Positions 6,201 to 46,040 of a stretch of 52,363 nt of DNA are shown here, in pieces. The translations under genes and the position numbers were made by a program. The notes under the pieces were generated by a model, which worked only from the letters and a program-made list of their open reading frames with translations, did not search any database and had not been told where the DNA came from. Source of the stretch: a virus (taxonomy: Duplodnaviria; Caudoviricetes); IMG/VR virus record IMGVR_UViG_3300022177_000001, positions 1 through 52,363 of that record; one strand, given 5' to 3'. The number at the start of each line of letters is the position of its first letter. The first letter of the stretch is position 1.

Positions 6201-9200
6201 CGGCAAGGTCAATGTCGCCTTCCTCGAAATCGGTGACAGCCTGCTCCAGGTCTTTCAGCGACTGGAGCGACGCGGCGGCGGCCGTCCCGGTCAGTTCCAC
6301 GAGCACCGCGCCAAGCTGGTCGGAAAGCGCGGCCGTCGTCGCCGCAGGGAGGCTGTACCCCGGGAGCGCGGCCTGGAACGCCTGGACGGCTTTCACGGCG
6401 TCCTCTGTGGATCGGTTCGCAAGGGCATCCTGGATGGCCCTGATTTGTGCCGTGATGCTGGTGGCGACGCTGCCGGAGATGTTGTAGGATGCAAACGTCT
6501 CCGTAAGTCCCTCAAGTTCGGTCCCGGCAGAGGACAGGACGGCCTCTAAAAACTCGACCTGGGCCGTCTGAATCTTGGTCCGGGTCGCATCGAAATCGAT
6601 GGTGTTTCCCAGGTAGTCGGAAAGGCTCTTGGTCGGGTCTTGCAGGATGGCCAGGAGGTCTTCGGCCTCAAGGAGCAAATCCGGATCGCCGAACGCGGCC
6701 AGGATGCTCTGCATAGTGGACAGCAGCGCGGCCTGGATTTCGGAAAGCGCCTTGAGCAAGTCTTCCTTGTCGGCAAAGTCGTCCGACGTATCCGCAAGGG
6801 AGTTCAACTCGTTCAGGGTCTTGTAGTAGGCCCTGCGGTACTCCAGCGGGTCTGTGGTGGACTTTTGCAGCGCGGAAAGCATGGTCTGCGCCTGCCCGCC
6901 AATCTCCGACAATGCCGTCCTGTTCCCGGTGAGCGCCAGATTGTAGGTAGCCTTGTACGAGTTCAAGGCTTCCTTGTACTTCGCTCCAGGGTCAAGGACG
7001 CTTTCTGCACTCTGCGTGAGGTCTTCAATGACATCGCGGATGGAGTCTGCGGCGCTCCGGTAGGCGTCGGCGGCCTCCTGGGCCAGAAGCGCCTGCTCCT
7101 GCATCAACTGCGCCTGCTTCTTGAAGCTGTTTTCCAGCGTCGTCGCTATGGAGTCGTAGCTTTCCCCCGTAACGTCCAGGTTCAGCATTTTCCGAAGCTG
7201 CGCCTCAAGCTCGTAGATTTGCGTTTCGACCAGCGCGAGCTGCTGGGCGTAGGTCATGCTGCTGGCCCGGGCCTCGGCAAGCTCCTGCTCGGCGTCGATC
7301 AAGGACTTGAGCGCGTCGGCCTCTTTTGTCCGGTCGTCGGCCAGAAGCCGCCGGTGCTCCAGGCCCTTGTCGAATGCCCATTCCTTGAACTCGATGGCCT
7401 CCAGTTGCCGCTGCATCTCTTGGAGCCCCGACACATAGGCCGAGATTTCGGACCACCAGCCGAACGCAGAGGGCGGCATGGCGCTATCCATGGCCTCCTG
7501 ATAGGCGGCCCAAAATGCGTCAACGTTGCCCTTGATCCACGAGACATCGAAGCCGGGAAGATACGACGATGCGTCTTCCGACTTGTTCTTAAATTCCGCA
7601 AGGTAGTAAGAGAGCGCGTTTTCGACCTGTTCACGGCTCGTGAACGCTCCTTCGGAGAAGCGTTCTATGGCCGCCTCGAATGCATCCTCGTCGCCTGCGG
7701 CTTTAACCAGCAGCTCGGAATACTGCGCGGCCAGGATGTTGCTCAGTTGCGTTTTGAACTGCTTGAAGTAGTTGATGACATCAACCGTGGCGTCCGAAAT
7801 GTCGTCGTATCCGAGCGCCTGCCGCTCCATGGCTGCCATCAGCTCGTCTGACGTGGCGCTCAGGCCCTTGGACACGGCGGCATACTGCAATACTTGGTCG
7901 TCGGTGATGCCCGACATTTTCACCAAGTTCATCCCCATGGACTCGACACGGGGCTTGACCGTCGCGAACGCCTCGCCAAGACGGATCAGTACGGCGTCCA
8001 GGGATTCGTAGCCGTCCTGGGCCATCGCGACCGCATTGGCCAGGTCTCCCAGGGCGTAGGCGGCGGCCTGCGACCGCATCACGAATTCCACGGCCCCCTG
8101 AAGCTCGTCCGGAACAGGGATGCCGACGAAGCTGAAGGATCGCTCCCAGCCCTTGGTGAAGTCGATTTCGAGGGCCTTCATGGCCTCGTTCATCGAATCG
8201 ACGTTCTCCTGGAAAGCCTTCCGGGCCGCGTCCAGCTCGGCCGGATCGATGGCGGAGATTTTGTAGCTGCCATCGTCCATTTGGGTGTAGCCGTAGCCGA
8301 GCATCGAACCGCCGAGCCAGGCCGTGGCACGGCCCTGCCAGACGGGCTGGGCCTCCTTCTTTTTTTCCTGCTCGGTCATCCCGCTAAAAATACTAACGAG
8401 TCCGCCGATTCCGGCCACGAGCCCGCCGACAACAGGGTTTACCAATGTCAGCAAAGAGCCAGCCGTCATCAACCCGCCGCCGATGCCCATAAGCGTGTTC
8501 CCGGACGCGAACCCCCCGGCGGCCGTGGCCATACCCGCCGCCGCACCCAATGCCGCCGTTCCGTTTCTGCTCCACCAGCCTCCGGAGGGATTGGCGTACT
8601 GATTCCCCTGGTAGCCGTAAGACAAGGTGCTGCGCCCGTCGTGCGTGGAGTATCCGCCGTTGTACCGGGCGTTGTTGCCGCCCCCAGATAGCGCGGAGAG
8701 GATGTCCCCAACCCCAGCCCCGCCGCCGGAGGACGATCCTCCCAGCAAGGCCCCGAACACGTTCTTTTTCAGCCACTCCGCAAGCATGTCCTCAAGGAAC
8801 GAAATGAAGCTGTCCAGAAGCCGGTTCAGCATCGACTTCCAGGCGTCCTCAAAACTCTTGATGTCGCCCGACGCCAAGCCGCGAAGTGCATCCCCAAGGC
8901 CCTGCGCGATGCCCTCGGAAAGGTCGTTGGACAGCGAAAGCATGCGCTCGGCCGTGCGCTTCCATTCGTCTTGGAGCTGGCCCATGGCCGACTTGTAGGA
9001 ACCGCTGTCGAGGGCAAAGACGGCCTGGATGGCCTCGCCGAGGTTGCGCGGGGCGTTGGCCTGGGCTTCGAGCTTGCGGCGGTTGTAGTCGTCCCACTGT
9101 TGGGCCGCGTAAATCTTGTAGGCCAGTTCGTCTTCGGCGCTCTCTTTGACGACGGCCAGCTTCTCTTCGACCAGGGCCTTTTCGGCGTCCCAATACTTCG

Positions 9201-12200
9201 AGGAGACGGAAGACATGGCCTCGTAGGCGTCGCGGTTGATTTCAAGCCGCTTGAGCGCCACGCCCTGTTCGAGGGCAGTCCGGAGTTCGGCGCGCTGCGC
9301 TTCGTCCTGCGTGGCCTGATCGATGGCTTGCCGGGCCTGCTTCTCCCACGCCTCAAGGTCCATGAGCCCGGCCTTGATCTTGAGGTCAGGGGAGCCGGAG
9401 GCGTCCGCGATGTCGCCCATGATGTCGGCCACGCGCCTCAAGGACTCGGCAAGCGCCTGCGCCTCCACGGATTGGCGTTCAAGTCCGCGCGCCCGGTCTA
9501 TCTGCGCCATGGCCTCGGCGGCCTGTTCGGCGGACAGCTTCGCGCTGCCAACGCGGCGCTCCCACTCGTTCCACCGCTTATCCACCTGGGCCAGCTTGGA
9601 CTGCACGGAATCGCCCGACAGCGCGGCTTCGACCATGGCAATCTGGTCGCTCAGGGAGGCCAGGAAGTTTTCGGCCTGTTGCGCGGCCTTGGCGGCGGAT
9701 GCGCCGGAACGGGAGGCGGCCTTGGCCGCTCGTTCTTCCGCCGTGGCGATGTCGTCCAGACGCCCCTTGCGGGCTTTCTCCGCTGCCGCCAGGGCTTCCT
9801 GCGCCTTGGCGCGTTGCGTCTCGGAAAGCGCGGCGTCGTTGACAAGCGGGGCATATCTTTCGATGGCCTGCTTATACTCGTTCTCCACCTGGATGCGTTT
9901 TTCGGCGGCGGTGTTGTACTGATTGGCGGCGGAAATCTCTTTTTCCGCATGAGCAAGCGCCTGCCCGGCGCTGGTGTTGTCGAAAACGTCTTTTTGCGCC
10001 TTCGCCGCTGCCTCTTGTTTTTCGGCCAGGACTTCAAGGCCACGGGCGTATAGGGCATTCTTTTCTTCGATGGCGGAAAGCGTGCTGAAATACTCTCTTG
10101 GGTCAAGAGCCGTGCCAAGTTTCCCTTGAAGGTCACTGATCTCGGATGCAAGAATTTTCTGAGCGTTCAACCCCGACTCATACGAAGACGCGGCATCTTC
10201 CGCTTTCCCCATAGATGTCTTCGCGAACTCCGAATTGATGTAGGCGATGGCCTTGGACACTTGCGACGTGTTCACGTTGACCGTCACATAGGCATGCCAC
10301 TCCTGGCCGGTCAGGCGGCGAATCTGCGCCTCAAGCTCCTTGATCTTCGCCGCCATTTCGTCGGCGCTTTCGCCGGACGGCGAGAAATCAAGCTGCTTCG
10401 CCTGGATATCGACCAGAATTTTGAAATAATCGTTGGCCTGGTTTTTGAGAGATTCAACCTGTGCTGCACGTATGTCTATCCCTCGTTGAAGTTCCGCAGA
10501 AGAACCTTCGGTATCCGCCACGGCGGCCGAAAGAAAGGTGCTAAGGCCTGGGATTCTTGTTTTCTTGAGGGCTTCAGCTATAAGGGTACGCATCCCGACG
10601 CCGCTAAAGGCATCGCTTTCGCCTGTGTTGATGTTTTCAAAGTGCTGTTCGACAACGCGAGAGGACTTCAACCCCTCTTCAATCCCCTTGAACAACCCGC
10701 CAGCAATTTTCAGCCCTGCGGCAAACGCATCTGTTTCGCCCATTTCAGACAAAATTTTGGTGACACTGTTCTTGATGCGCTCCATGTTCGCATCAATGGA
10801 TTGCGCCCCCTTCTCCCACCCCACGGCAAAGTTCTCCATCTCCATGGCCAACTTGGGGATGAAGTCCTTGGAAATAACCTGCCCTTCCTCCATGAGCTTG
10901 CGAAATTCGGCCACGGTCACACCAACAGCGTTCGCGCCCATCTGCATGGCACCGGGGATGCGCTCGGCGAATTGGGACCGGAACTCTTCGGCGCTCACCG
11001 TGCCCTTTGAAATCATCTGTTGCAGGGCCACCAACGTACCGTTCACGTCCTCCGTGGTGCCGCCCACCTTCGTGACGGTCTTGGACGTGGCCTCGAAAAT
11101 CTTTCGGGCCTGCTCCGTGGAGACGCCCGCATATTCGGCCGACGCGGCGAACTTGAGGTAGGACTTCGATGTCTCGATGAGCCCCTTGCCCATCATGTCG
11201 GCCTGGGTCGTGATGTAGTTCTGCGTTTCCCCGGCACGCGCGCCAAAAACGCCCTCGTAGGACTTGCGGAACTTGTCCATGGCGGCCGTGGCTTCGTAAA
11301 TCTTGACTGGTATTTGCTCAAAAAGACTGATGATCTGGTAAAATCCTCCGTACATGGCCGTGTTGACAAATGCCTGTCCGAACTGCTTCCCGATGCCCCC
11401 AGCCTCGTTCAGGGTCACGCCAAGCTGCTTTTCAAGCGACGCGATCTCTTTCTTGGAAAGCTGTGCATCATCGGCCAGCCGCCGCAAGGCGTCTGTTTTG
11501 ACGCGGACCTCGATGCCGCGTTGGGCTCGGGCCGAAAACCCGGCAAACTCCTTTTCGGCCATACCGAGCGACCCGGCGAGAACCTGAATGTCGGCCTTCG
11601 ACCGCTGCGTGGCGGACTGGACGGAACCCTGGAAAGCCTTGGCGGCGGCGGCGGCAGACCCAAGCGCGGGGGGCACTTCGGCTATTTTGGTGATGAGCGG
11701 ATCAAGGGCCTTCCCGGCGCCCCTGAAAGCCGCCTCGATGTTGGCGGACTCGCGGAACATCGACCCCGCCACGTCCTTGCTTTGGACAACCCCGGAATGC
11801 TGCGTGGCCCGATAGAAATCATCGATGACCCGGGAGAGTTCAACGCCCGTGTTCTTCGCGGCGGCCCTGGTTGTATTTAGGGACCGTTCGATGTTGCTGA
11901 AAAACTGATCGAAATTGGAGTCAAAGCCCGACGCCTTGAAGTTGCTGGCGGGGTCAAAGACCATGGCGGACTGCATTCGCTGTATGGCCTGGGCGGCAGC
12001 CTGGACGGACTGCAAGGCTTTGTCGGCCCCGGCCTTGGCCGAAGCCCCGAAGCTCTGAAACAGCCTGTCCGCAACCCCGAGCTTGGCGGCGAGTTCGGCC
12101 GTGGCGGATGCGGCGAGACGGTTTTTCTCAGAAAAATTGGCCAGGGCCTTGGCCGCCGCATCCATGGCCATGTTCTTTGAAACTTGATCCTGGAGGGCCT

Positions 12201-29295: not shown

Positions 29296-29310
29296 TGGTC
29301 CTCCTGGGTT

Positions 29311-29640
29311 TGGGGTCGCACAAGGACAAGGGGTTTCATGCCCGGCATGGCTCGCATAGTGGTTACGGGGTTCAAGGTCGGGTTGACTCGCACTGGCGGT
29401 CTGGGTTTCACGCAAAAGCTGGCTCACACGACGGGCCTGTGGTCAAAGGAAACCGTGGCGCATATAGGGGCTGGACTTCATCGTAACCTTGGCTTGCATT
29501 GTCTTCCTGGGGTTCAACGCGCCTTTGGCTCGCACCATCCCTTCGGGTTTCAGTCTCCACATGACTCGCACCCCGCTACTGGGTTTCACCCTCCACTTGG
29601 CTCGCACGACATGGATGGGTTTCATGCCTCTCCGGGCAAC
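29311..29640 (-). ncRNA. TIGR-type dual-repeat guide array 1 (9 units, one degenerate)
   Basis: Same two 9-nt repeats with 9-nt unique spacers and 36-nt period. Confidence 0.92.
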
Positions 29641-31483: not shown

Positions 31484-31722
31484 ATTTCGCGCTCCCCGGT
31501 GCGCCTCTCACCATCCTGGAAAGTTTTGCCGGGGCAGGCGGGCCAGGGAACCCGCTTTTCAATTGGCCGATCTAGCCCCGGGCAAAATCTGAAATCTGGC
31601 CAGGGGGATTTCTCCCCCCGGCAGAGGCCGCCCTTTGGTGTGGAGGGGGCACCTGGACGGCCGAATGTCAGGCTTGGGCAGAGCCCGCGCCCATCGCTTT
31701 GACCCATGGGGTCATGCGAAAA

Positions 31723-32513: not shown

Positions 32514-32845
32514 GGGTTCTCCCCCAGGTAGTATTTGGCCCCGCCCTCGCGGACAGCCGTGAACATAGCGAATGCGCGAAGCATCCGCAGCGGCAACAGC
32601 CACCGCGAACCCTGCGCAATCAAAAGGCACATATTGGCGAAAAACCGCGCATCGGCCGATGAGCGGCTGTTTCCGAAGGCATATTCCACATCATGGCAGT
32701 TGCAGGCGGGGGAGACGTCAAGGCCCCAAATCGTGTTGAGCTTGAGCTTCCACGAGGCGGGTCCGCACCCGTTCATCTGGGCGTCACGGTGCGCCTTGGG
32801 GATGGTTTCCCACCAGGAGGGAAGGGCGAGGGTCACGTCAGGCAT
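32510..32845 (-). CDS. Phospholipase A2-like protein
   Basis: NGCG, AC..HD..Y and R..AD..F..NM motifs. Confidence 0.6.
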   Translation of the reverse strand: MPDVTLALPSWWETIPKAHRDAQMNGCGPASWKLKLNTIWGLDVSPACNCHDVEYAFGNSRSSADARFFANMCLLIAQGSRWLLPLRMLRAFAMFTAVREGGAKYYLGENP

Positions 32846-33624: not shown

Positions 33625-34024
33625 GTTTTTTTACCTCCCCGGCCAGTTCGACCGGCGTCATGTAGCGGTAGATGCCCTTGATCCTGGTCCACCGAACCAG
33701 ATTTCCGGCGCGGATATCGACATGAAACCCGGGGCGTGGCCGCCACTCGGGATAGAAGCCGATGCCGCCGAAGCCAACGGTTTCCAGGATTTCAAGTTCT
33801 CGGGAATGATCCAGGCCGGACGCGAAGTGCAGGTCTGCGGCCATGCCGCGATAGTGGTAGGAGTTGGGCGAATGCCCGTCGTTGTCCCAGGCGACATGGA
33901 TGTGGATGGGCAGCCCGGCGAGGTCTCTGACTGCGTCCAACTTGTGAAGCAACGCATCCGCAACGCGGGAGGGGTCTTTTGGGAACTCGGATGCCTTGAA
34001 ATATTTGAGCGGGGGAAAGGACAT
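33611..34024 (-). CDS. Peptidase M15 family endolysin
   Basis: YF...EF, S.H..G.AAD, GGIG.Y and FHVD.R zinc-peptidase motifs. Confidence 0.88.
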   Translation of the reverse strand: MSFPPLKYFKASEFPKDPSRVADALLHKLDAVRDLAGLPIHIHVAWDNDGHSPNSYHYRGMAADLHFASGLDHSRELEILETVGFGGIGFYPEWRPRPGFHVDIRAGNLVRWTRIKGIYRYMTPVELAGEVKKHDPR

Positions 34025-34451
34025 ACGACGCCTCCCAAGGGTGGGCCGCCGCGACCTCGTGATGACGACGGGCGGCCCCTTTTGGGAAGGCATCTTACAG
34101 CGGAATCAAGAGGGCGTGGTGTCTTAAATTGTCTAATATTGTTCAAAATTGTGCAGTGAGGGCTGGCACTTTTGCGTGAAAATGTGGCCGAAACTCTGTA
34201 TGAAGGGGCACACTCGGTTACCAGCTATACCCCCCCAGGGTTTCACCCCCCCCACCTCCCCCTCGCGCGCGCGTGAGACGGCTACCGCGTCGGGACGAGC
34301 TTGCCGCCGTCCTGGTCCAGGCCGTGACCGCCCACGAGCTAGCCGCGCCTGACTCCTGCCTGCCGTTGACCATCATTTGCGGATCATTCCGGTTTAACCT
34401 CGTGCCGTCCTGGTCCGCGTCTTGCTTTGGCCCTGAGCAGGAGGAACGACC

Positions 34452-34691
34452 ATGACCACCACACCCGAGCTTGACCACACCCAAAGCCAGGCCCCGGCTT
34501 GTGATCTGCTTTCGGCCGCTGAGGCCGCGCGACTGATCGGATTTCGAGCGGTGCAAATGGTTTACCGCCTCGCGGACCTCAAGCCCGCGCGGACCAAACC
34601 CCGGCTTTACCACCTCGCGGACGTGCAGCGGATCGCGGGGGAGTACGAGCGGGCAGGCCGGAGCGGCACCATGCGACGTACAAAATCTTGA
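34452..34691 (+). CDS. Small HTH protein (excisionase/MerR-like)
   Basis: LLSAAEAARLIG......VYRL...LY.L.DV; GAGGA RBS. Confidence 0.65.
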   Translation: MTTTPELDHTQSQAPACDLLSAAEAARLIGFRAVQMVYRLADLKPARTKPRLYHLADVQRIAGEYERAGRSGTMRRTKS

Positions 34692-34768
34692 ACCTTTGCC
34701 CGGCGAAATTCCCCCGCAAACCCGCATGGCATGGCTACATCTTATTGAAATGATTGAAGTATAATTAT

Positions 34769-34784
34769 TTGTACCGAAGTACAA
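34769..34784. promoter_or_regulatory. Palindromic operator-like site in an AT-rich leader
   Basis: TTGTAC-CGAA-GTACAA next to TATAAT, upstream of the plus-strand operon. Confidence 0.5.
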
Positions 34785-34928
34785 TTTTTTTTACGAGCTT
34801 GCCCGGCTATCGTTTGCAAATACCTGAAATCATTCATCGGTTAAATGCTTGTACGAGTGGCACGCCTCTTGCTTTACCTTTGGCATAGGCGAACGGGATC
34901 GGCCCGGGGCCACAAACAGGAGACCGCC

Positions 34929-35393
34929 ATGCTCTCGACCACCGACCACGCCACCCCCGATCCCCTGGTGCCGACGCACCACGGCGCAGAGCACTACGTC
35001 AGCCTAGACGCCATCCGTCGCGCGGCCGTGCGGCTGCATCTGATCGACCCGGCCGATGCCGACCGGCTGGTATCGCCTCACGACCTGCATCAGGACGGCG
35101 GACGCCGCCCAAGCCTGATGGCGGAATTTTTCGACAACTCGCCCGTAGAATACGACTCACGGTGGCTGCGCGTCGGCCACACCGGTCCCACCGTGCGCAC
35201 CATCGCGCGCCCCCTAGGCCGCATCGTGCTCGTAGACGATGACCAGCCCCAGGTATGGGACGGCGACGTCGGCACCAGCGAGGCGCATTTCGCCGCCGAG
35301 GCCGCCCAGACCGAGGCCATCCGGACGTGGTACATGCTGGCCAGCGTGGCCATGGCCTACGAGGGGGCGACCCTCGGCGACATCATGATGTAG
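34929..35393 (+). CDS. Hypothetical protein
   Basis: AGGAG RBS; first gene of an orphan operon. Confidence 0.7.
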   Translation: MLSTTDHATPDPLVPTHHGAEHYVSLDAIRRAAVRLHLIDPADADRLVSPHDLHQDGGRRPSLMAEFFDNSPVEYDSRWLRVGHTGPTVRTIARPLGRIVLVDDDQPQVWDGDVGTSEAHFAAEAAQTEAIRTWYMLASVAMAYEGATLGDIMM

Positions 35394-35402
35394 GAGACCA
35401 CC

Positions 35403-35687
35403 ATGGCAATCGACAGGAGACAGGACATGCACCGCAACACCGCTATCGACCAGATCAATGCCGCCATGCGCGCCCATGAATTCACTCGGGCGGACGAAGT
35501 CGCCCTGGAATACTACCGCGCCCGATTTGCCGACGGCTGGCGGCCCAGCTACGGAGACCTTGGCCGTATCGGCGTGCGTGACGGGGTATACGAGTGCCAC
35601 GTCGCTGATAAGTATGTGGCTGTGTTCGCGGCGCACGAAATAGGAGGGGGCTTTGGCCGCGTGCGCGGAATCGGGACCGTCGCCTAA
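35403..35687 (+). CDS. Hypothetical protein
   Basis: AGGAG RBS overlapping the previous stop codon. Confidence 0.7.
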   Translation: MAIDRRQDMHRNTAIDQINAAMRAHEFTRADEVALEYYRARFADGWRPSYGDLGRIGVRDGVYECHVADKYVAVFAAHEIGGGFGRVRGIGTVA

Positions 35688-35759
35688 CCCCCAGCCGCCT
35701 GCCCGGCGGCACTATGCCCGGGACGCCTGGGCATACACTGCCGAGCAACCGAGGACCAC

Positions 35760-36890
35760 ATGGACATTTTCGACGCCGCCGAAAAAATAACCGAGGCCGC
35801 CCAGGCCATGGGCTACGGCGCGCGGACCCACGTCGCGGAAACCGGATCGGTCTATCTGGATTTTGCCCGTGACCGCGCCGACGGCGGACTTGATGAATTA
35901 ACCGTGAGGGTTTCGACGCATGGCGAGTGCTACCCCCCGGCGGCCGGAGTGCGGCAAATCTCCGTGGACCCGGACGGCATGACTGTGGATCAGGCCGCGG
36001 ACTGCCTTCGCGACCCTTCGCGGGTGACGCCGGAAGCCCCGGCCGCGCACGCCCCGGCGATCACGCACTACTCGTGCCAGGGTGGATCACAGACCTGGTT
36101 GCCTACGCGGCACCCCTGCGTTTCCTACGACTCGGACGCCCAGAACGTGCGCGGCGCGACAGACCCCTATTTGATCCAGGCCAGGGCGCTACGCGCACGC
36201 CCGCAAATCCTGGAGGACACGCCGCCCGGGGCCGCCGTAAGGTGGTTTTCGGCGCGCGGCTCACAGGCTGTGATTGCGCAAATGCACGAGGGCCGATTTC
36301 CATGGAATCCGGATATTCCGCCGGAAATTTTCGTCATCTACTCCGAAACCTCGAAAACCGTTGTTCCCAAGGCTGTTGGCGTGGCGCTCTATGGAAAACC
36401 GAGCATCGGGATTGATCGAAAACAGCAAATATCGAAATGGGGCGACAGCACGTTGCGGGCCGAGGTTGTGACCGCCGTGCAGCACGCGCTCAATCCGTTC
36501 ATGCGCTCGGCATTGGCTGGAGAATTGAGCCCACAGGATTTTTACCATGCGGCGTGGTATAATGGAATTCGAATTTTCAATAAATACGCCGAACACAAAA
36601 ACATTGTCACGCACGGAAAACAATATGCGGACGGCCTGTCATGGTTCAAAACGCTGATGGCGAAATTGCGTCGTGAACTCGGGATTCCGTCGCCGTTTGA
36701 CGTGTGGGGAAAGAAAATTGCCGTGGCCCGGGCAAATGGACGACGGGGGGGCCGCCGCCAGACCATACCGTGGAACAAATACGATGCCCGGATTCTGGCC
36801 GGGGAAAACGTCGCGGCCCTCGCGGACGAGATAGGGTGTTCCCGTCAGATGGTTTACAATAGGAAGTTTCAGTTGAAAAAAATCACATAG
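35760..36890 (+). CDS. Hypothetical protein with C-terminal HTH
   Basis: GAGGA RBS; AR.NG..GGR and VAALADEIGCSRQMVYN. Confidence 0.7.
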   Translation: MDIFDAAEKITEAAQAMGYGARTHVAETGSVYLDFARDRADGGLDELTVRVSTHGECYPPAAGVRQISVDPDGMTVDQAADCLRDPSRVTPEAPAAHAPAITHYSCQGGSQTWLPTRHPCVSYDSDAQNVRGATDPYLIQARALRARPQILEDTPPGAAVRWFSARGSQAVIAQMHEGRFPWNPDIPPEIFVIYSETSKTVVPKAVGVALYGKPSIGIDRKQQISKWGDSTLRAEVVTAVQHALNPFMRSALAGELSPQDFYHAAWYNGIRIFNKYAEHKNIVTHGKQYADGLSWFKTLMAKLRRELGIPSPFDVWGKKIAVARANGRRGGRRQTIPWNKYDARILAGENVAALADEIGCSRQMVYNRKFQLKKIT

Positions 36891-36904
36891 AAAGATAGAT
36901 TAAA

Positions 36905-36974
36905 TCGTTCCCCGCAGTGCGGGGGTGGACCGTAGAAAAGAGTTTTGTGTTCCCCTGCGTGCGGGGGATAGGCG
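36905..36974 (+). CRISPR. Two degenerate type I-E-like CRISPR repeats separated by 14 nt (solitary repeat units, no cas genes)
   Basis: TCGTTCCCCGCAGTGCGGGGGTGGACCG and GTGTTCCCCTGCGTGCGGGGGATAGGCG resemble the E. coli I-E repeat GTGTTCCCCGCGCCAGCGGGGATAAACCG. Confidence 0.65.
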
Positions 36975-37011
36975 CAAACAATCCCTACGCAGCAACCCGC
37001 CGGTCCCTGGG

Positions 37012-37239
37012 CTACTGCCTCGCCCGGCGCGCGCGCCACGCCGCAAGCTCACACGACGACGCGCGCATGGTCGATCCCGGGCCGCCGTCCTGGTAGACCG
37101 GGGGCGGATCGTCGCCCCGAAGGAGCACGTAGAGTGTGCCTCGTGAAATACCAAGCTCATCGGCCACCTGTTTGGCCGTCGTCAGGTCGCACGCCTGGAC
37201 AGGCCCGAACCCGACAACGGGGGCTTTATCGGTCTGCAT
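37012..37239 (-). CDS. AlpA/excisionase-like HTH protein
   Basis: TAKQVADELGISRGTLY..L....P; L.AW. Confidence 0.75.
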   Translation of the reverse strand: MQTDKAPVVGFGPVQACDLTTAKQVADELGISRGTLYVLLRGDDPPPVYQDGGPGSTMRASSCELAAWRARRARQ

Positions 37240-37495
37240 CGCGCCCTCCTGGCCGGTCCTGTTTGACCCGGCCCTTGAAATTGCCCCGGGCGTCGAAAAC
37301 CTTGCCGTCGCGAATGCGCCCTTGGAACTGGCCCCTGGAATCGAACACCCTGCCGTCGTAGACGCGGCCCTGGTAGCGGCCCTGGGTGTCGTAGATGCGA
37401 CTGGACTCCCTACGCGGCACCTCGCCGGTCCCTGAATCGGCCAGAGCGCAGGAAGCGGACAGGGCCAGGATGATGATGGCGATGATAAGTTTCAC
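37226..37495 (-). CDS. Exported protein with short beta repeats
   Basis: Signal peptide; three (Y/F)D..G.(Y/F).GR repeats. Confidence 0.7.
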   Translation of the reverse strand: MKLIIAIIILALSASCALADSGTGEVPRRESSRIYDTQGRYQGRVYDGRVFDSRGQFQGRIRDGKVFDARGNFKGRVKQDRPGGRDADR

Positions 37496-37938
37496 GGCCT
37501 TTCCTCCCTACGCGGCATGTCGCCGGTTCCCGTCCACTCCCCTTTCTTCCCCCCGTCGTACTCCCTCGCCAGCCCAAGCCCCAGGAGCGCCGACCCCACG
37601 TCGATGCCGCCGCACTCGACCCGCGCCAGAAGCCGAAAATACTTGTCCCGGGCCACGTCACGCAGTTCCGCCACGCTCCCGGCCGGGCACCAGCCTCGCA
37701 CCTGATCCCGGGCCTGGACGGCAATCTGGCGCGTTTCATGCGTACCCCCGCGCATCTCGGGCGTGTCGATGCCTCGCACGCGGACGCCGATCCGCTCCCC
37801 GAAAACCGCAGGCGCATCCGGAATATCCACGGTCAACGTGTCGCCATCGTAGACCGAGACGACTACGGCCGACAGGTCTGCGGCGTGGACGGGCCAGGGC
37901 AGACAGGCCAGGACAAAAAATAGAGCGATGGACTTCAT
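37492..37938 (-). CDS. Thermonuclease (SNase) with signal peptide
   Basis: V.DGDT, R.RGIDTPE, DKY.RLLA and GLA..Y motifs. Confidence 0.92.
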   Translation of the reverse strand: MKSIALFFVLACLPWPVHAADLSAVVVSVYDGDTLTVDIPDAPAVFGERIGVRVRGIDTPEMRGGTHETRQIAVQARDQVRGWCPAGSVAELRDVARDKYFRLLARVECGGIDVGSALLGLGLAREYDGGKKGEWTGTGDMPRREERP

Positions 37939-38240
37939 GGCGACTCCGTTTTCTCGACCCGCACAACCCTTTCCCGTCTCCCCCACTCCCTGGCCGTGGC
38001 TTCGTCCTCGACGCACAGGTCGATGGTGCGCCGGGCATCAGGGCCGGTCAAGTCTTGGATAAAAACCCAACCTACGCCATCCACATGGATTTCTTGGCCT
38101 AAAAGATCACGCATGTCACGACTTACAGCAGCAGTCAGCCCCGGGCGCACCTCGTGCCCCATGGCCCCGATGCCGTTGCTGCCACCCTGGCCCGGATGGT
38201 AGGCGGTTATCATGAGCAGGCCGAGGGCGAGGGCTTTCAC
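37935..38240 (-). CDS. 3D domain-containing protein
   Basis: TAY, AVS.D, G..I...G.G....D and IDL motifs. Confidence 0.75.
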   Translation of the reverse strand: MKALALGLLMITAYHPGQGGSNGIGAMGHEVRPGLTAAVSRDMRDLLGQEIHVDGVGWVFIQDLTGPDARRTIDLCVEDEATAREWGRRERVVRVEKTESP

Positions 38241-38470
38241 GAGCCTTCCCCCGTCAGCACATAGCTGTGAACGTTTTGTTGCGTCCCTGCCATTGTGACG
38301 ATGGTCTTGCGTGCCGGGCGGCAACGGCCCTCTTTGATAGCCATTTTGAGCAATTTTCGTACCTTCTCTTCGCCGCACATCATGGCTTCGGCTATCTCGG
38401 CAGTGGTCATCCCTTCGCCCTGGCTGGCCTCGTTAAGCCTCGAAAGAAGGTCAACCATGTCCACGGTCAA
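38237..38470 (-). CDS. Small winged-HTH protein
   Basis: GMTT.EIA........VR..LK....G; start codon uncertain. Confidence 0.6.
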   Translation of the reverse strand: MTVDMVDLLSRLNEASQGEGMTTAEIAEAMMCGEEKVRKLLKMAIKEGRCRPARKTIVTMAGTQQNVHSYVLTGEGS

Positions 38471-39279
38471 AGTTGCTCCACAGGGGGCACCGCCGCCCGA
38501 ACATTGAGGATGTGGCGTTTCCATTGGATTTCTCCTGTCTTGAAAATGTCGAAATGCATGAACCCGAAATGCACGATCCCGCTGCAACGGCGGCCTCCGA
38601 ACTTGGTTTGTGCGGCCTGGAGCGCAGGGAGACAAAACCCCATGCGCGGGCCTCCCCTGGGGCCTATGTCGTCGATCCCGATGTATCGGTGGGTATGGCC
38701 GCGAAGGTAAACGTTGGCCTTCGGTTGCGCCTCCATCTCGGCCCACAGGAGATTCCAAAGCATGTCCTTCATCAGGGCCGTGCCTTTGCCGTGCGGGATG
38801 CTGGTGCCGCCGATGTGGTGCTTGAGGTGAAACACGATGCCGTGGCGCTCAATCCAAGCCTGATCCGTGATCTTGGCATCAAAGGCGTCGGCCACAATTT
38901 TTTCAAAGTCCTCGGCATCCCCGGTGTGGTACGGTGTGCCGTAGACGAATCGGTTGTACTTGGCCCCGACATGGCGAACCACGGCCTTGGCCATCTCACA
39001 TTGCTCGTACCTGTCCGTGGTAATGAGTTCGGTTCCGCCCGAGCGATGCCCGGCACCGTCAATGAGGTCAGCAATCCACGCCGCGCCGTCGAATGGTTTG
39101 AGCGCGTCCACGGTGCCGGTAAACCAGCCCCAGAGTTCACGCTGGAGTTGCCCGATTTCGGCCCTGGCCCCGTCGAGGGGGAAATGCCACTCCGGGGGCG
39201 TCAATCCCGCGAAGTGACCGCAATGCGTGTCATTCCCCACAAAGAGGCGGTAGAAGTCGCGTCCGCCGAAGAACCTCAT
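38467..39279 (-). CDS. Calcineurin-like metallophosphoesterase
   Basis: D.HCG, DLIDG, GT.YH, HH and RGH.H motifs. Confidence 0.8.
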   Translation of the reverse strand: MRFFGGRDFYRLFVGNDTHCGHFAGLTPPEWHFPLDGARAEIGQLQRELWGWFTGTVDALKPFDGAAWIADLIDGAGHRSGGTELITTDRYEQCEMAKAVVRHVGAKYNRFVYGTPYHTGDAEDFEKIVADAFDAKITDQAWIERHGIVFHLKHHIGGTSIPHGKGTALMKDMLWNLLWAEMEAQPKANVYLRGHTHRYIGIDDIGPRGGPRMGFCLPALQAAQTKFGGRRCSGIVHFGFMHFDIFKTGEIQWKRHILNVRAAVPPVEQL

Positions 39280-41068: not shown

Positions 41069-41451
41069 AAGGGAACGTCGTCCATACCCTGGGAATCACT
41101 CGGAAACGCCGGGCCATTGTCGTCCTGCGCCGATCTCTGACCCTGGTTGCGTGCCTGTCCCTGCTGGAACTCGACCTCGTTGCAAATGACCTCGGGCATG
41201 GAATGCTTCTGGCCGTCCTTTTCCCACTCGTTGATAGTCAGTTCGCCGCGAACCATGATCGGCTTGCCCTTGGTCAGGTGTTGCCCCAGGTTTTCACGCT
41301 TAAAGACCTTGCAACGAAGCCACATCGTTTTTTTCTTGTCTCCAAAACCCGTATCGACAGCCAATGAAAACGTGGTGACGGCCATTCCGCCGCTGGTGTA
41401 TTTCGTTTCGGCATCTTTCCCGATGCGGCCTGATGCGATAAAAAGATTCAT
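41065..41451 (-). CDS. ssb: Single-stranded DNA-binding protein
   Basis: OB-fold motifs and DDVPF C-terminus. Confidence 0.97.
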   Translation of the reverse strand: MNLFIASGRIGKDAETKYTSGGMAVTTFSLAVDTGFGDKKKTMWLRCKVFKRENLGQHLTKGKPIMVRGELTINEWEKDGQKHSMPEVICNEVEFQQGQARNQGQRSAQDDNGPAFPSDSQGMDDVPF

Positions 41452-41463
41452 TGATGTCTCCTT

Positions 41464-43173
41464 TTACTCGAAATATACTCCGCACTCGCGGGCGTACTTC
41501 AGTTCTGCCTTTCCGGGCTTTCCAATCTCACGGAAGCGAACCTTTTGGATGTAAACCTCAGTCACATCGCGCTCTATGTCAGGACGGTGGACACATATTC
41601 CGTTGTCCGCTTTGTTCCTCCAGTGACTACTTCCGGAAATGTCATACATCGTCGGAACGGGATAATCCCCGCTGTCCTTATTTTTTTGCAGCTTGGTAGG
41701 GTGCGCGACAAGCCACACATGAACATTGTTTATCCTTGCGAATCGACGAATCTTTGTTAAACATTGTGAAATGTAGTCCGTTTCGCTCATTTTGTCGCCA
41801 CGATTATGCTCTATTTCATTCCATGGGTCAATAACAACACCACGGCAACCAAAACGATATATCGCGGCACGAGCCTTTTGCAAAATGCTATCAAGGGACA
41901 TTTCGTCTTCTGGCGGCATGATGAAATGGAAAAATCCGTCCATGTATTGCATTCCCGAGGCCACTTCATCTTCTCGCATCCGTTCCGTGTAGCTGTACTT
42001 CGTCGAGAACGGCTTTCGGATGATCTTTTCCAGGATGTTGGCAACATGCCTCTCAGGCGGCCAGTTCTCAGGTGAGAACAGCGCAAACGCCCATTCCTGT
42101 TCCCGGTGGAGGTTGACCAGGAGCGCGTCCAGCCAGTTTGACTTCCCTGAACCTGGGATGCCGGTCACAATCGTCATCTCGCCCGGGCGAACGGTGTAGA
42201 ACTCATCCAGGCACGCCCACCCAGTGGAAACGCCAGGACGCATCCCCTCGGCGTAAAGCAAGTCCACATCCCCGGCGAGGTCGGGAATCCCAAACAGCCC
42301 CACCACGGGCATCGGAACCGCGTTGGTAATGACCGCCGCCGCAGCGTCCTTGCCGTGCTTGACCAGGACTTCGTTGATGTCCTTGCACCCGTCGGGGTAT
42401 GTGACGCGCCAACACTTTTCGACGCCGATGCGTCGGGCAAGCTCACGCTCAAGCGTCTGGCCGGGCAGGTCATTGTCCACGCACAGGATCACGCGGCCAT
42501 AGGCGGCAAGGATTTCTTCGGCGGGCTCCAAGAAGCTGAATTTCTTCTCGTACTGCTTCGTATCCGGAGATGGCGCGCCGTCGGGGACGCTAGTTACGGC
42601 GTTGATGCCGATGCTCACCAGGGACAGGGCGTCCATCTCGCCCTCGGTGATGACCAGGAACCTACTCGCGCTGGCCCGGGATGCGATTTCGTCAAAGCGG
42701 TACAGGCATTTTTCGGCATCTTTGGCCTGCCGAAACCTCTTTTTCCCGTCGCGAAACTTGATGTTCACGACTTCGCCGCCCTTGACGTAGGGGAACTGGA
42801 TGCACGTCACTTCCCCGTCCGCCCCGGGCATCCAGGCCATGCCATAGCCCACCCGATTCGCCTTCAACGCCTCGGGCGTGATCCCGCGCCCGGAGAAGTA
42901 CGCCAGCACCTTCTCGGGCAAGTCCACGCTGGCCTTGTAGGCAGGCTTGACTGGCCGCTTCGGCGTTGGTTCTTTCTTCTCCGAAGCGATTTTCAGCCCG
43001 CCCGTCCAGCCGCAATGCCAGCAATTCCAGACGCCGTCGTCCACGTTCACGCTCAAGCACGGGTCCGTGGATTTTTTCCTGGACGGCGAACACTGCGGGC
43101 ATGTCGTCTTCACGTCGCCCGTAGCATCCGAAGGCACCTCAATCCCAAAATCGGTAAATGATTTCAGAACCAC
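41464..43173 (-). CDS. Bifunctional primase-helicase (T7 gp4/Twinkle-like)
   Basis: CP.C/C.HC zinc finger, EGE.D and D.D TOPRIM motifs, G.PGSGKS, IDP and AHP.K. Confidence 0.93.
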   Translation of the reverse strand: MVLKSFTDFGIEVPSDATGDVKTTCPQCSPSRKKSTDPCLSVNVDDGVWNCWHCGWTGGLKIASEKKEPTPKRPVKPAYKASVDLPEKVLAYFSGRGITPEALKANRVGYGMAWMPGADGEVTCIQFPYVKGGEVVNIKFRDGKKRFRQAKDAEKCLYRFDEIASRASASRFLVITEGEMDALSLVSIGINAVTSVPDGAPSPDTKQYEKKFSFLEPAEEILAAYGRVILCVDNDLPGQTLERELARRIGVEKCWRVTYPDGCKDINEVLVKHGKDAAAAVITNAVPMPVVGLFGIPDLAGDVDLLYAEGMRPGVSTGWACLDEFYTVRPGEMTIVTGIPGSGKSNWLDALLVNLHREQEWAFALFSPENWPPERHVANILEKIIRKPFSTKYSYTERMREDEVASGMQYMDGFFHFIMPPEDEMSLDSILQKARAAIYRFGCRGVVIDPWNEIEHNRGDKMSETDYISQCLTKIRRFARINNVHVWLVAHPTKLQKNKDSGDYPVPTMYDISGSSHWRNKADNGICVHRPDIERDVTEVYIQKVRFREIGKPGKAELKYARECGVYFE

Positions 43174-45094: not shown

Positions 45095-46040
45095 TGCTGA
45101 CCTCCAAAAGAGATGGCCTTGACGACTCCATTTCGATGGCCCGCAGGTTCTTCACGGCCTGTGCAAAGTATTCCGGCTTGAGTTCAATCCCCACGGCCTT
45201 GCGCTTGCGCGAGACGGCCCCGTAAAGCTCCGAACCGATGCCCGCGAACGGGGTGAAAACGACTTCTCCGGGAAGGGTCCACAACTCGATGGCGCGTTCG
45301 ATCACGTCCAGTTGAAGGGGGCAGAGGTGTCGTTCGTCTTTCTCGCTTCGGGCCACTCGGACGTTGAGCGTCCTGGTTTGGTTGATGTCGAACCAGACCG
45401 GAGAGGCGTACCGCTGCCACACGTCGATGCTCGTTTGCATCGGGACCACATCGCCACGGGATGGCGTCGGATCACCAGTCCCAACATATTCTGACGGGTC
45501 AAGTCCTCCCGGACGATGGACTGGAACGTCTTCGCCAGGGGCGCGAAAAACCAGAAGCACGTCAGATATTCCCTGACGAACCATCGCAGAGTTCTTGCAA
45601 AGCTGTTTGTGAAGAAGCCCAACGGATTTCGTGCGCTGCATCTCCACTACGGGGTCTTTCCATATCGTCACACGGGAATGATAGATCCACCCATGGGATG
45701 AAAACAGGCGGATCAACTCGCCGGGGAAGTCCTTCAACCCCACGTTGCCGTCCTTGTACTTGAACATCGGCAGGTCTGAGCAATGGACAGCGCACAACCT
45801 GCCCGGGCGGGTAACGCGCAAGAGTTCAGGGACCAGGAACCCGAAGTGCTTGTAAAACTCGTCGTCCGTGGCGCAGTTCCCCATGTCGCGCTCGGAATCC
45901 GAATAGACGAAGATGGACGAAAACGGCGGGGAGAAAACCGAAAAATCCATGCACCCGTCAGGGATTCCCTTGATGACCTCGCATGAATCCCCAAGGTAGA
46001 TTGACCAGTTCTTGCCGTGGGCCTGATTTTCACATTGCAT
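45087..46040 (-). CDS. DNA methyltransferase (N4/N6 type)
   Basis: FSPPF catalytic motif, H.CPLQ and PFAGIGSE SAM motif. Confidence 0.92.
   Translation of the reverse strand: MQCENQAHGKNWSIYLGDSCEVIKGIPDGCMDFSVFSPPFSSIFVYSDSERDMGNCATDDEFYKHFGFLVPELLRVTRPGRLCAVHCSDLPMFKYKDGNVGLKDFPGELIRLFSSHGWIYHSRVTIWKDPVVEMQRTKSVGLLHKQLCKNSAMVRQGISDVLLVFRAPGEDVPVHRPGGLDPSEYVGTGDPTPSRGDVVPMQTSIDVWQRYASPVWFDINQTRTLNVRVARSEKDERHLCPLQLDVIERAIELWTLPGEVVFTPFAGIGSELYGAVSRKRKAVGIELKPEYFAQAVKNLRAIEMESSRPSLLEVSNA

What the first reader, a model, noticed from the sequence alone, without database searches (positions are those of the whole stretch)
36905..36974. Two CRISPR type I-E-like repeats without cas genes: candidate RNA anti-CRISPR
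Seen: two 28-nt units with the GTTCCCC..GC...GCGGGG stem of I-E repeats, 14 nt apart, 15 nt after the stop of an orphan operon. Known: phage solitary repeat units can act as crRNA mimics that inhibit Cascade (Racrs; Camara-Wilpert et al., Nature 2023). Inference: the short pseudo-spacer would give an aberrant crRNA after Cas6e cleavage.
Basis: partly seen in the sequence, partly recalled or inferred. Interest (0 to 1): 0.78.

Follow-up and report, generated by a model that had tools for sequence, protein, structure and literature searches.

The report
Phage-borne two-repeat CRISPR RNA decoy
A prophage of sulfate-reducing bacteria carries two worn copies of its host's CRISPR repeat set only 14 bases apart, most likely a small RNA that mimics a CRISPR guide to blunt the host's immunity; this kind of trick is already known, so it is a good new candidate rather than a new principle.

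Summary
U1 (36905-36932) and U2 (36947-36975) are the only two exact matches to GTTCCCC-N6-CGGGGG in the window (0 in 100 shuffles). They copy the type I-E repeat of Desulfovibrionaceae arrays.

The phage belongs to that family. Its primase is 66-70% identical to the four best named genome records. Eleven I-E spacers from three genomes that share one repeat match the window, eight of them with AAG, AGG or ATG PAMs.

U1 keeps the 8-nt part that becomes a crRNA 5' handle. U2 keeps the 5' flank and a hairpin with compensatory changes. That is the psiR1-psiS-psiR2 pattern of regulatory mini-arrays, which I also found between cas3 and cas8e in host genomes.

A promoter-like site ends 5 nt before U1. 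Contigs from four RNA libraries bridge the units.

Best reading: an RNA anti-CRISPR of the Racr/Cracr kind, with a 14-nt pseudo-spacer shorter than the ranges I read in print. I found no target for that pseudo-spacer, no relatives of the locus, and no functional data. It is a new variant of a known kind; interest is moderate.

The parts
36873..36901 (+). sigma-70-like promoter match: TTGAAA, 17 nt, TAGATT. It would start transcription at about 36907-36909, the first bases of the U1 core.
   Evidence: Consensus scan, 9 of 12 positions. It is a pattern match only; 3 such sites were found in 34000-38500 against 1.2 expected.
36905..36932 (+). U1 (psiR1): a degenerate I-E repeat with a canonical CCCCGC/GCGGGG stem, a 3-nt loop and an intact handle-coding tail.
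   Evidence: Best covariance-model hit in the window (19.0 bits). It folds as a 7-bp hairpin, -11.9 kcal/mol. It is identical except for the loop to psiR1 of viral locus L363.
36925..36932 (+). Predicted 8-nt crRNA 5' handle, GTGGACCG.
   Evidence: 7 of 8 identical to the handle part ATGGACCG of the G046 array repeat, and 5 of 8 to ATGATCCG of the G120/G175/G072 repeat. The cleavage position is inferred from what is established for Cas6e (recalled).
36933..36946 (+). Pseudo-spacer (psiS), 14 nt: TAGAAAAGAGTTTT.
   Evidence: No convincing PAM-flanked target in 42 host cas loci, in the window or in 133 related phage loci.
36947..36975 (+). U2 (psiR2): canonical 5' GTGTT, a 6-bp stem whose two top pairs are changed in a compensatory way, a 4-nt loop and a degenerate 3' tail.
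   Evidence: -11.1 to -13.5 kcal/mol. The tail ATAGGCGCAAAC shares 9 of 12 letters with the tail of the CreR-like psiR2 of G120/G193.
36925..36967 (+). Predicted mature 43-nt crRNA-like RNA: 8-nt handle, 14-nt psiS and 21-nt 3' hairpin.
   Evidence: Inference from U1/U2 anatomy. The fold keeps the 3' hairpin. Processing is not shown.
34452..36890 (+). Upstream plus-strand accessory operon of four ORFs (79, 182, 94 and 376 aa) that runs against the flanking phage genes; the mini-array follows it. A fifth candidate ORF of 60 aa (34273-34455) lies just upstream.
   Evidence: No Pfam or PHROG family for any of the five ORFs. The 376-aa protein has one relative among 5.8 billion clusters. One RNA-library contig per run spans from 34447/34453 to 37532 or further.
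37012..37239 (-). Convergent 75-aa HTH (excisionase/AlpA-like) gene; its stop lies 36 nt beyond U2.
   Evidence: Weak HTH_17 match (E 2.5e-4, below the Pfam cut-off) and phrog_66.
34487..34518 (+). Protospacer inside the accessory operon, matched by a G175 I-E spacer (2 mismatches, PAM AAG).
41961..41992 (+). Protospacer (G175 spacer, 2 mismatches, PAM AGG) in the primase-helicase gene.
42023..42054 (+). Protospacer (G175 contig 64 spacer, PAM ATG).
42317..42348 (-). Protospacer (G175 spacer, 3 mismatches, PAM AAG).
11036..11067 (-). Protospacer (G175 spacer, 2 mismatches, PAM AAG) in the tape-measure gene.
10283..10314 (-). Protospacer (G120 spacer, 2 mismatches, PAM position reads CGC).
41186..41217 (-). 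Protospacer (G120 spacer, 2 mismatches, PAM AAG).
41231..41262 (-). Protospacer (G120 spacer, 4 mismatches, PAM AAG).
45594..45625 (-). Protospacer (G120 spacer, 4 mismatches, PAM position reads AAT).
32679..32710 (+). Protospacer (G120 spacer, 4 mismatches, PAM AAG).
8513..8544 (+). Protospacer (G072 spacer, 4 mismatches, PAM position reads AAC).

Best explanation
U1, the 14-nt pseudo-spacer and U2 form a phage-encoded mimic of a type I-E crRNA gene, used as an RNA anti-CRISPR.

Proposed mechanism (every step is inferred):
1. The element is transcribed on the + strand, from the promoter-like site that abuts U1 and/or as the tail of the accessory operon.
2. Each unit folds into the hairpin that host Cas6e recognises.
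3. Cleavage at the base of both hairpins (after 36924 and after 36967) would release a 43-nt mini-crRNA: handle GUGGACCG, 14 nt, then the 3' hairpin.
4. A 14-nt guide segment can hold only about two Cas7e subunits instead of six. The RNA would therefore tie up Cas6e, Cas5e and Cas7e in stunted, useless complexes and compete with the host's phage-targeting crRNAs. That is Racr-like competitive inhibition.

Shown here: the anatomy, the likeness to host repeats, I-E targeting of this phage lineage, and presence of the region in RNA-library contigs. Inferred: transcription start, processing, complex formation and inhibition.
For: - Repeat identity. 30 of 401 genomes of the host family have 10 or more matches to GTTCCCCGC-N3-4-GCGGGG at 61-nt spacing. 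The consensus is GTGTTCCCCGC-N4-GCGGGG-ATGNNCCG. U1 is the top model hit in the window.
- Complementary conservation. U1 has lost the 5' GT but keeps the handle-coding tail. U2 keeps GTGTT and a 6-bp stem with a tetraloop (top pairs G-C to U.G and C-G to G-C) but has lost the handle. The CreR preprint states the same rule for psiR1 and psiR2 (10.1101/2023.03.10.532045, passages seen). I see it in the CreR-like elements of host genomes.
- Loop length. 3-nt loops like U1's occur in four host or viral psiR units, but in 0 of the 38 array consensus repeats.
- Selective pressure. 11 of 1747 spacers (1701 distinct spacers from 38 genomes plus 46 from G175 contig 64) match the window with 4 or fewer mismatches. 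All 11 come from G175, G120 and G072, which share one repeat. PAM positions read AAG x6, AGG and ATG. The G120 locus is I-E by Pfam: Cas3, Cse1, Cse2, Cas5, PF08798, Cas1.
- Expression hints. The promoter-like site is at 36873-36901. In 4 of 4 RNA libraries laid, one contig bridges the units.
- No U-tract terminator was called at the units on either strand.
- Precedent. In IMG/VR, 11 of 114 groups of such I-E units have short spacing (gaps 36-54 nt), including two canonical repeats 7 nt apart in L339.
Against: - There is no comparative support. None of 133 related phage loci, 401 family genomes or the IMG/VR and JGI metagenome scans has this mini-array, so conservation and covariation across relatives cannot be tested.
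- U2 alone is not a significant repeat match (E 1.6), and Rfam finds no CRISPR-DR family.
- U1 has a loop one base shorter than every array repeat seen. Liu et al. attribute poor Cas6 processing of one psiR to exactly such a deletion (section 8).
- U1's handle differs from the probable host clade's repeat at 3 of 8 positions, including the base next to the cleavage site.
- As a whole 88-nt RNA, the two units can pair with each other instead of folding locally, and the fold is not exceptional (z -1.95).
- The RNA evidence comes from contigs only. It gives no strand, no ends and no small RNA, and DNA carry-over in the libraries is not excluded.
Confidence: 0.42

Rival explanations
1. Cracr-type guide. 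The same mini-crRNA is a working regulatory guide. Its 14-nt psiS pairs with a PAM-flanked site in a host promoter (the cas operon, cas3 or a CRISPR-guarding toxin), so that Cascade silences host immunity without cutting, as described for viral crRNA-like RNAs.
For: - The layout psiR1-psiS-psiR2 with a shortened psiS is that of Cracrs (Liu et al., sections 3, 7, 8 and 11).
- The host family uses such circuits. 6 of 10 CreR-like mini-arrays between cas3 and cas8e have a PAM plus 9-18 nt of PAM-proximal match 57-166 nt downstream; in G120, G193 and G063 the mismatches fall at every sixth position.
- U2's tail resembles the psiR2 tail of the G120/G193 CreR-like element (9 of 12), which suggests descent from a host regulatory mini-array.
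- U1 equals psiR1 of the two-spacer viral array L363 apart from the loop.
Against: - The psiS resembles none of the 10 host psiS sequences.
- In 42 cas loci of 38 genomes, the 14-nt register has no run of 9 or more. In the 13-nt register the best hit is AAG plus 10 nt at the cas3 start codon of G052, and an equal or better hit arises in 4 of 60 shuffled psiS.
- Hits in the window and in related phage loci are at shuffle level.
- 14 nt lies below the psiS sizes I read for viral Cracrs: 21-24 nt for the I-E example and 17-21 nt for I-F.
- The true host genome was not available, so the test is incomplete.
Confidence: 0.2
2. Inert or merely structural. The units are a decayed scrap of a host array or CreR-like element picked up by recombination. 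At most the two GC hairpins stabilise the 3' end of the operon mRNA or damp convergent transcription.
For: - The locus is unique to this record in all collections searched, as expected for a recent accident.
- It sits exactly between convergent genes.
- Both units depart from the canonical repeat.
- GC hairpins of the form GTTCCCC...GGGG are common singletons in GC-rich genomes and viral contigs.
Against: - Decay is not random. The parts kept are those a mature crRNA would contain, and the stem changes in U2 are compensatory.
- There is no U-tract on either strand, and no terminator was called there.
- RNA-library contigs run through the units for about 560-600 nt more in X5 and X6, and beyond 38200 in X3 and X4.
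- A promoter-like site abuts U1.
Confidence: 0.3
3. Mini-CRISPR array for inter-virus competition. The phage borrows host Cas proteins and uses its single spacer to attack related phages.
For: Viral mini-arrays with repeats like the host's are known (review PMC11656645, passages seen). 84 of 114 groups of I-E units in IMG/VR have normal 61-nt spacing.
Against: A 14-nt spacer is far below the 32 nt of every array seen here. Matches of the psiS in 133 related phage loci are at shuffle level: 46 against 41.4 expected.
Confidence: 0.03

Closest known systems
Racr, RNA anti-CRISPRs made of solitary repeat units (Camara-Wilpert et al., Nature 2023, PMC10651486; passages seen)
   Same: A repeat mimic on a phage, away from cas genes, with a predicted promoter directly upstream. 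Two I-E Racrs were shown to inhibit a Pseudomonas I-E system. The proposed action is competition for Cas proteins and formation of aberrant subcomplexes.
   Different: Racrs are single repeats with a 3' extension. Here two units flank a 14-nt segment, so a defined mini-crRNA is expected. The host phylum is Thermodesulfobacteriota. No functional test exists.
Cracr, viral crRNA-like regulatory RNAs and Cracr arrays (Liu et al., bioRxiv 10.1101/2024.10.29.618823; sections 3, 7, 8 and 11 read)
   Same: The psiR-psiS-psiR mini-array sits on a prophage. The psiS is shorter than a normal spacer. psiR1 keeps the 5' handle and psiR2 keeps the hairpin. One psiR has a 1-nt loop deletion. The authors also propose competition with crRNAs.
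   Different: Cracrs were defined by at least 9 PAM-proximal matches to a host CreR/CreA spacer; none was found here. The psiS sizes I read are 21-24 nt (I-E example) and 17-21 nt (I-F); here it is 14. The phyla they name are Pseudomonadota, Bacillota and Actinomycetota.
CreR/CreA, host regulatory mini-CRISPRs (bioRxiv 10.1101/2023.03.10.532045; passages seen)
   Same: The same degenerate two-repeat design. I found such elements between cas3 and cas8e in the host family. U2's tail resembles that of the G120/G193 element.
   Different: The host elements lie inside cas loci, have a psiS of 22-32 nt, and 6 of the 10 examined have a PAM-flanked target next to them. The phage element has none of these.
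Virus-borne mini-CRISPR arrays used in inter-viral conflict (as reviewed in PMC11656645; passages seen)
   Same: Host-like repeats on a virus without cas genes.
   Different: Those carry full-length spacers against related viruses. Here the spacer is 14 nt and has no enriched target.
Short-spaced I-E units in other IMG/VR contigs (L339, L283, L282, L330, L380)
   Same: I-E-type units closer together than 61 nt. L339 has two canonical repeats 7 nt apart.
   Different: They are unrelated phages. L363, the one locus tested, shares nothing with the window beyond the unit. All but L339 have a psiS of about 19-25 nt. None has been studied, as far as I saw.

Membership tests
Type I-E CRISPR repeat (Desulfovibrionaceae form) | 5' GTGTT, a 6-bp CCCCGC/GCGGGG stem, a 4-nt loop and the 3' tail ATGNNCCG (29 nt) | tested here: inconclusive
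   U1: stem exact, loop 3 nt, tail 7 of 8 against G046 and 5 of 8 against G120/G175, 5' GT lost; 19.0 bits, E 0.042. U2: 5' part exact, stem kept by compensatory changes, tail 3 of 8 against ATGAACCG (2 of 8 against the host clade's ATGATCCG); 11.8 bits, E 1.6. Both are degenerate copies, not canonical repeats. No Rfam CRISPR-DR hit.
CRISPR array | Three or more repeats at regular spacing of about 61 nt, with spacers of about 32 nt | tested here: not met
   Two units 42 nt apart start to start. Nothing repeat-like at +/-61 nt.
Racr (solitary repeat unit RNA anti-CRISPR) | A single repeat unit on a mobile element, similar in sequence and fold to the host's repeat | tested here: not met
   Similarity is met, but there are two units, not one.
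Racr (solitary repeat unit RNA anti-CRISPR) | Not associated with cas genes; a promoter within 250 bp upstream | tested here: met
   No Cas among 30 ORFs scanned and none by tblastn. Promoter-like site at 36873-36901 (consensus match only).
Racr (solitary repeat unit RNA anti-CRISPR) | Expressed as a small RNA that inhibits the cognate CRISPR-Cas system | not testable with these tools
   Contigs from RNA libraries cover the locus, but they show neither a small RNA nor inhibition.
Cracr (viral crRNA-like regulatory RNA) | A psiR-psiS-psiR mini-array on a virus or plasmid, outside CRISPR-Cas loci | tested here: met
   The window is phage: portal, capsid, TerL, tape measure.
Cracr (viral crRNA-like regulatory RNA) | [quoted passage not shown] | tested here: inconclusive
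   Not met against 10 CreR-like elements and 42 cas loci of 38 genomes of the family. The phage's own host genome was not at hand.
Cracr (viral crRNA-like regulatory RNA) | Cas-dependent maturation and repression of the target promoter | not testable with these tools
   Needs small-RNA sequencing and reporter assays.
Intrinsic (rho-independent) terminator | A GC-rich hairpin followed at once by a U-tract | tested here: not met
   None of the 4 terminator-like sites called in 34000-38500 lies at the units. No run of T follows either stem on either strand.
Viral mini-CRISPR array for inter-viral conflict | A full-length spacer that matches related viruses | tested here: not met
   14 nt. Hits in 133 related loci are at shuffle level.

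The most novel reading that the evidence does not exclude
The mini-array encodes the shortest natural type I guide yet described (14 nt). It would build a minimal Cascade (Cas5e, about two Cas7e, Cas6e). That complex either silences a host promoter not yet identified, or acts as a two-hairpin Cas6e sponge expressed from the prophage during lysogeny. Either way, lysogens would tolerate the I-E spacers that this bacterial clade demonstrably acquires against the phage. This would be an ultra-short-spacer subclass of RNA anti-CRISPRs, with L339 (7-nt gap) as a second example, and the first in Thermodesulfobacteriota.
Probability: 0.2. Interest if true: 0.7.

Novelty: new variant of a known kind. 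Interest (0 to 1): 0.5.

Why it matters
If it works, RNA-based anti-CRISPRs extend to phages of sulfate-reducing bacteria, a phylum not named in the two studies I read. It would also test how short a crRNA-like RNA can be and still engage Cascade.

The system is unusually ready for experiment:
- The probable host clade is marked by 11 spacers against the phage.
- Its I-E locus and its own regulatory mini-array are in hand.
- Mixed-culture RNA libraries that contain the locus already exist.

A decoy versus guide experiment (scramble or lengthen the 14 nt) would say whether spacer content matters at this length. That bears on the design of compact guides and of CRISPR-resistant phages. If it does not work, it is simply a decayed repeat scrap between two operons.

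Tried and rejected
- Rfam at E<=10 on 36860-37010 gave no CRISPR-DR match on the units.
- Relatives of the locus were sought and not found:
  - The 376-aa protein as a query found nothing in viral or genome contigs.
  - blastn of 34800-38100 against GenBank phages found no match.
  - None of 133 primase-anchored loci holds the units (6 or fewer substitutions) or the island genes.
  - A DNA search of 401 family genomes gave only short hits, none over the units.
  - A scan for the U1 tail, a gap, then GTTCCCC gave 11 metagenome hits, all without hairpins and apparently chance matches inside GC-rich coding-like sequence, and 0 viral hits.
- The first loose pattern scan of IMG/VR (53 loci) gave mostly unrelated hairpins and is near the chance expectation by my own rough estimate. 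Only L005 was a true I-E-like unit.
- G120 at about 1.38 Mb looked like a related element, but it shares only a small beta-flower-like gene.
- The psiS target searches were negative or at shuffle level. The AAG + 10-nt site at the cas3 start of G052 depends on the 13-nt register and is matched by 4 of 60 shuffles. An exact 13-nt match with ATG in L081, a Nitrospinaceae MAG, I take as chance.
- Folding the whole 88-nt RNA or the minus strand gave no exceptional structure.
- RNA libraries: the first 247 bases of the laid stretch (34200-34446) have no cover in any of the four runs. I draw nothing from that beyond the weak hint of a common contig end given in the full report.
- Supplementary tables of Liu et al. 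(S1-S3) and of Camara-Wilpert et al. were not open to me. They may list this record or similar ones.
- 'Not in print': three searches (the terms are in those calls) gave no paper on RNA anti-CRISPRs in Desulfovibrio phages. I saw listings only for the 12 papers.
Full report
WHAT IS THERE

The window is an IMG/VR virus record of 52,363 bases, linear and about 67% complete. It is a siphovirus-like temperate phage. It carries:
- tRNA-Thr at 4-79;
- a 3096-aa tape-measure protein, a portal, a capsid protein, TerL, a primase-helicase, RusA and a CII-like regulator, all on the minus strand.

Between the lysis genes and the early genes lies a plus-strand island of five orphan ORFs: four at 34452-36890 and a 60-aa candidate at 34273-34455. 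None of the five has a Pfam or PHROG family. The last ORF (376 aa) has a single relative among 5.8 billion protein clusters.

Fourteen bases after its stop codon come the following:
- U1, 36905-36932: TCGTTCCCCGCAGTGCGGGGGTGGACCG
- 14 bases, 36933-36946: TAGAAAAGAGTTTT
- U2, 36947-36975: GTGTTCCCCTGCGTGCGGGGGATAGGCGC

A convergent 75-aa HTH gene ends 36 bases further on.

IS IT MORE THAN CHANCE?

The exact pattern shared by both units occurs twice in the window and never in 100 shuffles. At two mismatches the pattern is at chance level (11 against 13.4), so only these two sites stand out. Hairpins of the type GTTCCCC...GGGG are common singletons in GC-rich DNA. The claim 'I-E repeat' therefore had to be tested against real repeats.

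WHOSE REPEATS?

The primase-helicase places the phage with Desulfovibrionaceae:
- 86% identity to two IMG/VR contigs;
- 66-70% to the four best named genome records: two Desulfovibrio MAGs, a Desulfovibrionales MAG and Solidesulfovibrio aerotolerans.

I sampled 401 genomes of that family.
- 30 have 10 or more matches to GTTCCCCGC-N3-4-GCGGGG at 61-nt spacing.
- 38 have an I-E-type Cas3 at E<1e-130.
- The G120 locus is I-E by Pfam: Cas3_HD, Cse1, Cse2, Cas5, PF08798, Cas1.

The 15 distinct repeats I aligned read GTGTTCCCCGC-N4-GCGGGG-ATGNNCCG. A covariance model built from them ranks U1 first in the window (19.0 bits, rough E 0.042) and gives U2 11.8 bits (E 1.6). Rfam finds no CRISPR-DR family.

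IS THE PHAGE UNDER I-E PRESSURE?

Yes. Of 1701 distinct spacers from 38 genomes plus 46 from a second G175 array, 11 match the window with 4 or fewer mismatches: five from G175, five from G120 and one from G072. These three genomes share the repeat GTGTTCCCCGCGCTCGCGGGGATGATCCG. The PAM positions read AAG six times, AGG once and ATG once; the other three read AAT, AAC and CGC. One protospacer (34487-34518) lies in the accessory island itself. These genomes mark the probable host clade.

ANATOMY READ AGAINST THE REPEAT

- U1 has the canonical stem, a loop one base short, and the tail GTGGACCG. That tail is 7 of 8 identical to the handle part of the G046 repeat and 5 of 8 to that of the host clade. 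U1 has lost the 5' GT.
- U2 has the canonical 5' GTGTT and four canonical C-G pairs. Its two top pairs are changed on both sides so that pairing is kept. It has a 4-nt loop. After GGGG-AT, its tail is degenerate.

Both units fold as 7-bp hairpins like the host repeat: -11.9, -11.1 to -13.5 and -14.3 kcal/mol.

What is conserved is therefore what a single mature crRNA would contain: a 5' handle from U1 and a 3' hairpin from U2. The CreR preprint states this rule for psiR1 and psiR2.

I found the same design in the host family, between cas3 and cas8e. Of 10 such elements examined, 6 have a PAM and a 9-18-nt PAM-proximal match 57-166 nt downstream. In G120, G193 and G063 the mismatches fall at every sixth position.

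Two further links:
- Three-base loops occur in four of these psiR units, but in 0 of the 38 array consensus repeats.
- U2's tail shares 9 of 12 letters with the psiR2 tail of the G120/G193 element. I chose this element post hoc among about nine tails.

U1 equals psiR1 of a two-spacer viral array, L363, except for the loop.

EXPRESSION

A sigma-70-like match (TTGAAA, 17 nt, TAGATT; 36873-36901) would start RNA at the first bases of the U1 core. This is a consensus match only.

Nine RNA-seq runs of a mixed culture (9 study codes, all from 2018, possibly one campaign) hold 41-93% of the words of 34200-38200. I laid four of them, and each gave one contig that bridges the units:
- X3 and X4: from 34447 to beyond 38200.
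- X5: 34447-37580.
- X6: 34453-37532.

Three contigs share the left end 34447, with no loose end. X6 has 25 loose letters there that look like adapter sequence (my recall). I take the common left end as a weak hint of an RNA end 5 nt before the ATG at 34452.

These are contigs. They show no strand, no local depth and no small RNA, and DNA in the libraries is not excluded.

No terminator-like site was called at the units on either strand, and no U-tract follows either stem.

MECHANISM

Most likely (0.42): an RNA anti-CRISPR that works by mimicry. Cas6e binds and cuts both hairpins. The 43-nt product (36925-36967), with only 14 nt between the handle and the hairpin, cannot carry a full Cas7 backbone and so ties up Cas6e, Cas5e and Cas7e. 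All of these steps are inferred.

Rival 1 (0.2): the 14 nt guide a small Cascade to a host promoter, as Cracrs do. I found no target. The 14-nt register has no run of 9 or more in 42 cas loci. The 13-nt register gives AAG plus 10 nt at the cas3 start codon of G052, which 4 of 60 shuffled spacers equal. Nothing is enriched in the window or in related phages. The host genome itself was not available.

Rival 2 (0.3): an inert scrap, or hairpins of merely structural use. The uniqueness of the locus speaks for this. The ordered pattern of decay speaks against it.

Rival 3 (0.03): a mini-array against other phages. The spacer is too short.

COMPARISON WITH WHAT IS KNOWN

Racrs are solitary repeats, and two I-E Racrs have been shown to work in Pseudomonas (PMC10651486, passages seen). 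The element here has two units, so it fails that defining feature although it may work like a Racr.

Cracrs have this very layout (bioRxiv 10.1101/2024.10.29.618823, sections 3, 7, 8 and 11). However, they are defined by a match to a host CreR/CreA target. I could not find one, and their psiS sizes as I read them (21-24 nt for the I-E example, 17-21 nt for I-F) are longer.

In IMG/VR, 111 loci carry I-E units of this sequence type. Of 114 strand groups, 84 have 61-nt spacing, 19 are single units and 11 are short-spaced (gaps 36-54). Only L339, with a 7-nt gap, is tighter than the 42 nt here.

VERDICT

The element is a new variant of a known kind: a two-repeat RNA anti-CRISPR candidate with an ultra-short pseudo-spacer, in a phage of Thermodesulfobacteriota. 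It is untested and has no relatives to compare. Interest 0.5.

Earlier notes of this scan on the same window had flagged the upstream operon as anti-defence-like. My calls add that it is orphan, that it is targeted by a host spacer, and that it is present in RNA libraries.

Noticed in passing
window 28137-28237 and 29529-29607, flanking ORF 28456-29427 (-): Two tandem arrays of 36-nt period lie on either side of a 323-aa ORF that has no Pfam family. I only confirmed that the repeats exist.
   Followed up: partly
L243:13372-13460 (G120), L245 (G193), L239 (G063), L236 (G059), L389 (G046), L393 (G017), L409 (G072), L411 (G079), L240 (G052), L387 (G226): Type I-E loci of Desulfovibrionaceae carry CreR-like degenerate mini-arrays between cas3 and cas8e. 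6 of 10 have a PAM-flanked partial target 57-166 nt downstream. Several psiR1 stems are rebuilt with fully compensatory changes, for example CTCGAA/TTCGAG in G120. I did not see this family named in the passages of the CreR preprint that I read; 'Desulfovibrio' has 0 occurrences in its main text.
   Followed up: partly
L339 (IMGVR_UViG_3300035130_000021), units at about 1273-1335: Two canonical I-E repeats are separated by only 7 nt in a viral contig. This is the tightest pair among the 111 loci and a possible second example of a tandem-hairpin decoy.
   Followed up: no
L005:4340-4440 (IMGVR_UViG_2597490209_000001): A single I-E-like unit with tail GTGAGCCG is followed about 22 nt later by a hairpin with a T-run, between convergent genes. 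This is a textbook solitary repeat unit in an unrelated phage.
   Followed up: partly
window 34447-34453: Contigs from four RNA libraries share a left end 5 nt (X6: 1 nt after) the ATG of the first island gene, downstream of its GGAGGA. This may be a leaderless start or a processing site. It is a weak hint only.
   Followed up: no
window 31514-31582 (-): Rfam int-alpA RNA match above the gathering score (49.2 bits) in the middle of the phage.
   Followed up: no
window 52238-52363 (+): The open-ended last ORF (from 51871) runs into 27-nt coding repeats, seen as repeated matches on the minus strand.
   Followed up: no
window 17636-17660 (+): Second-best hit of the I-E repeat model: GTGTTCC, 8 nt, GGATAGTCCG; 16.1 bits, E 0.18. 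It lies mostly inside an ORF (17429-17656) and lacks the stem, so it is probably chance.
   Followed up: no
L240:15284-15299 (G052): AAG followed by 10 nt identical to positions 2-11 of the phage pseudo-spacer lies right at the start codon of cas3. Equal or better hits arise in 4 of 60 shuffles, so I treat it as chance, but it is worth a look once the real host is known.
   Followed up: partly
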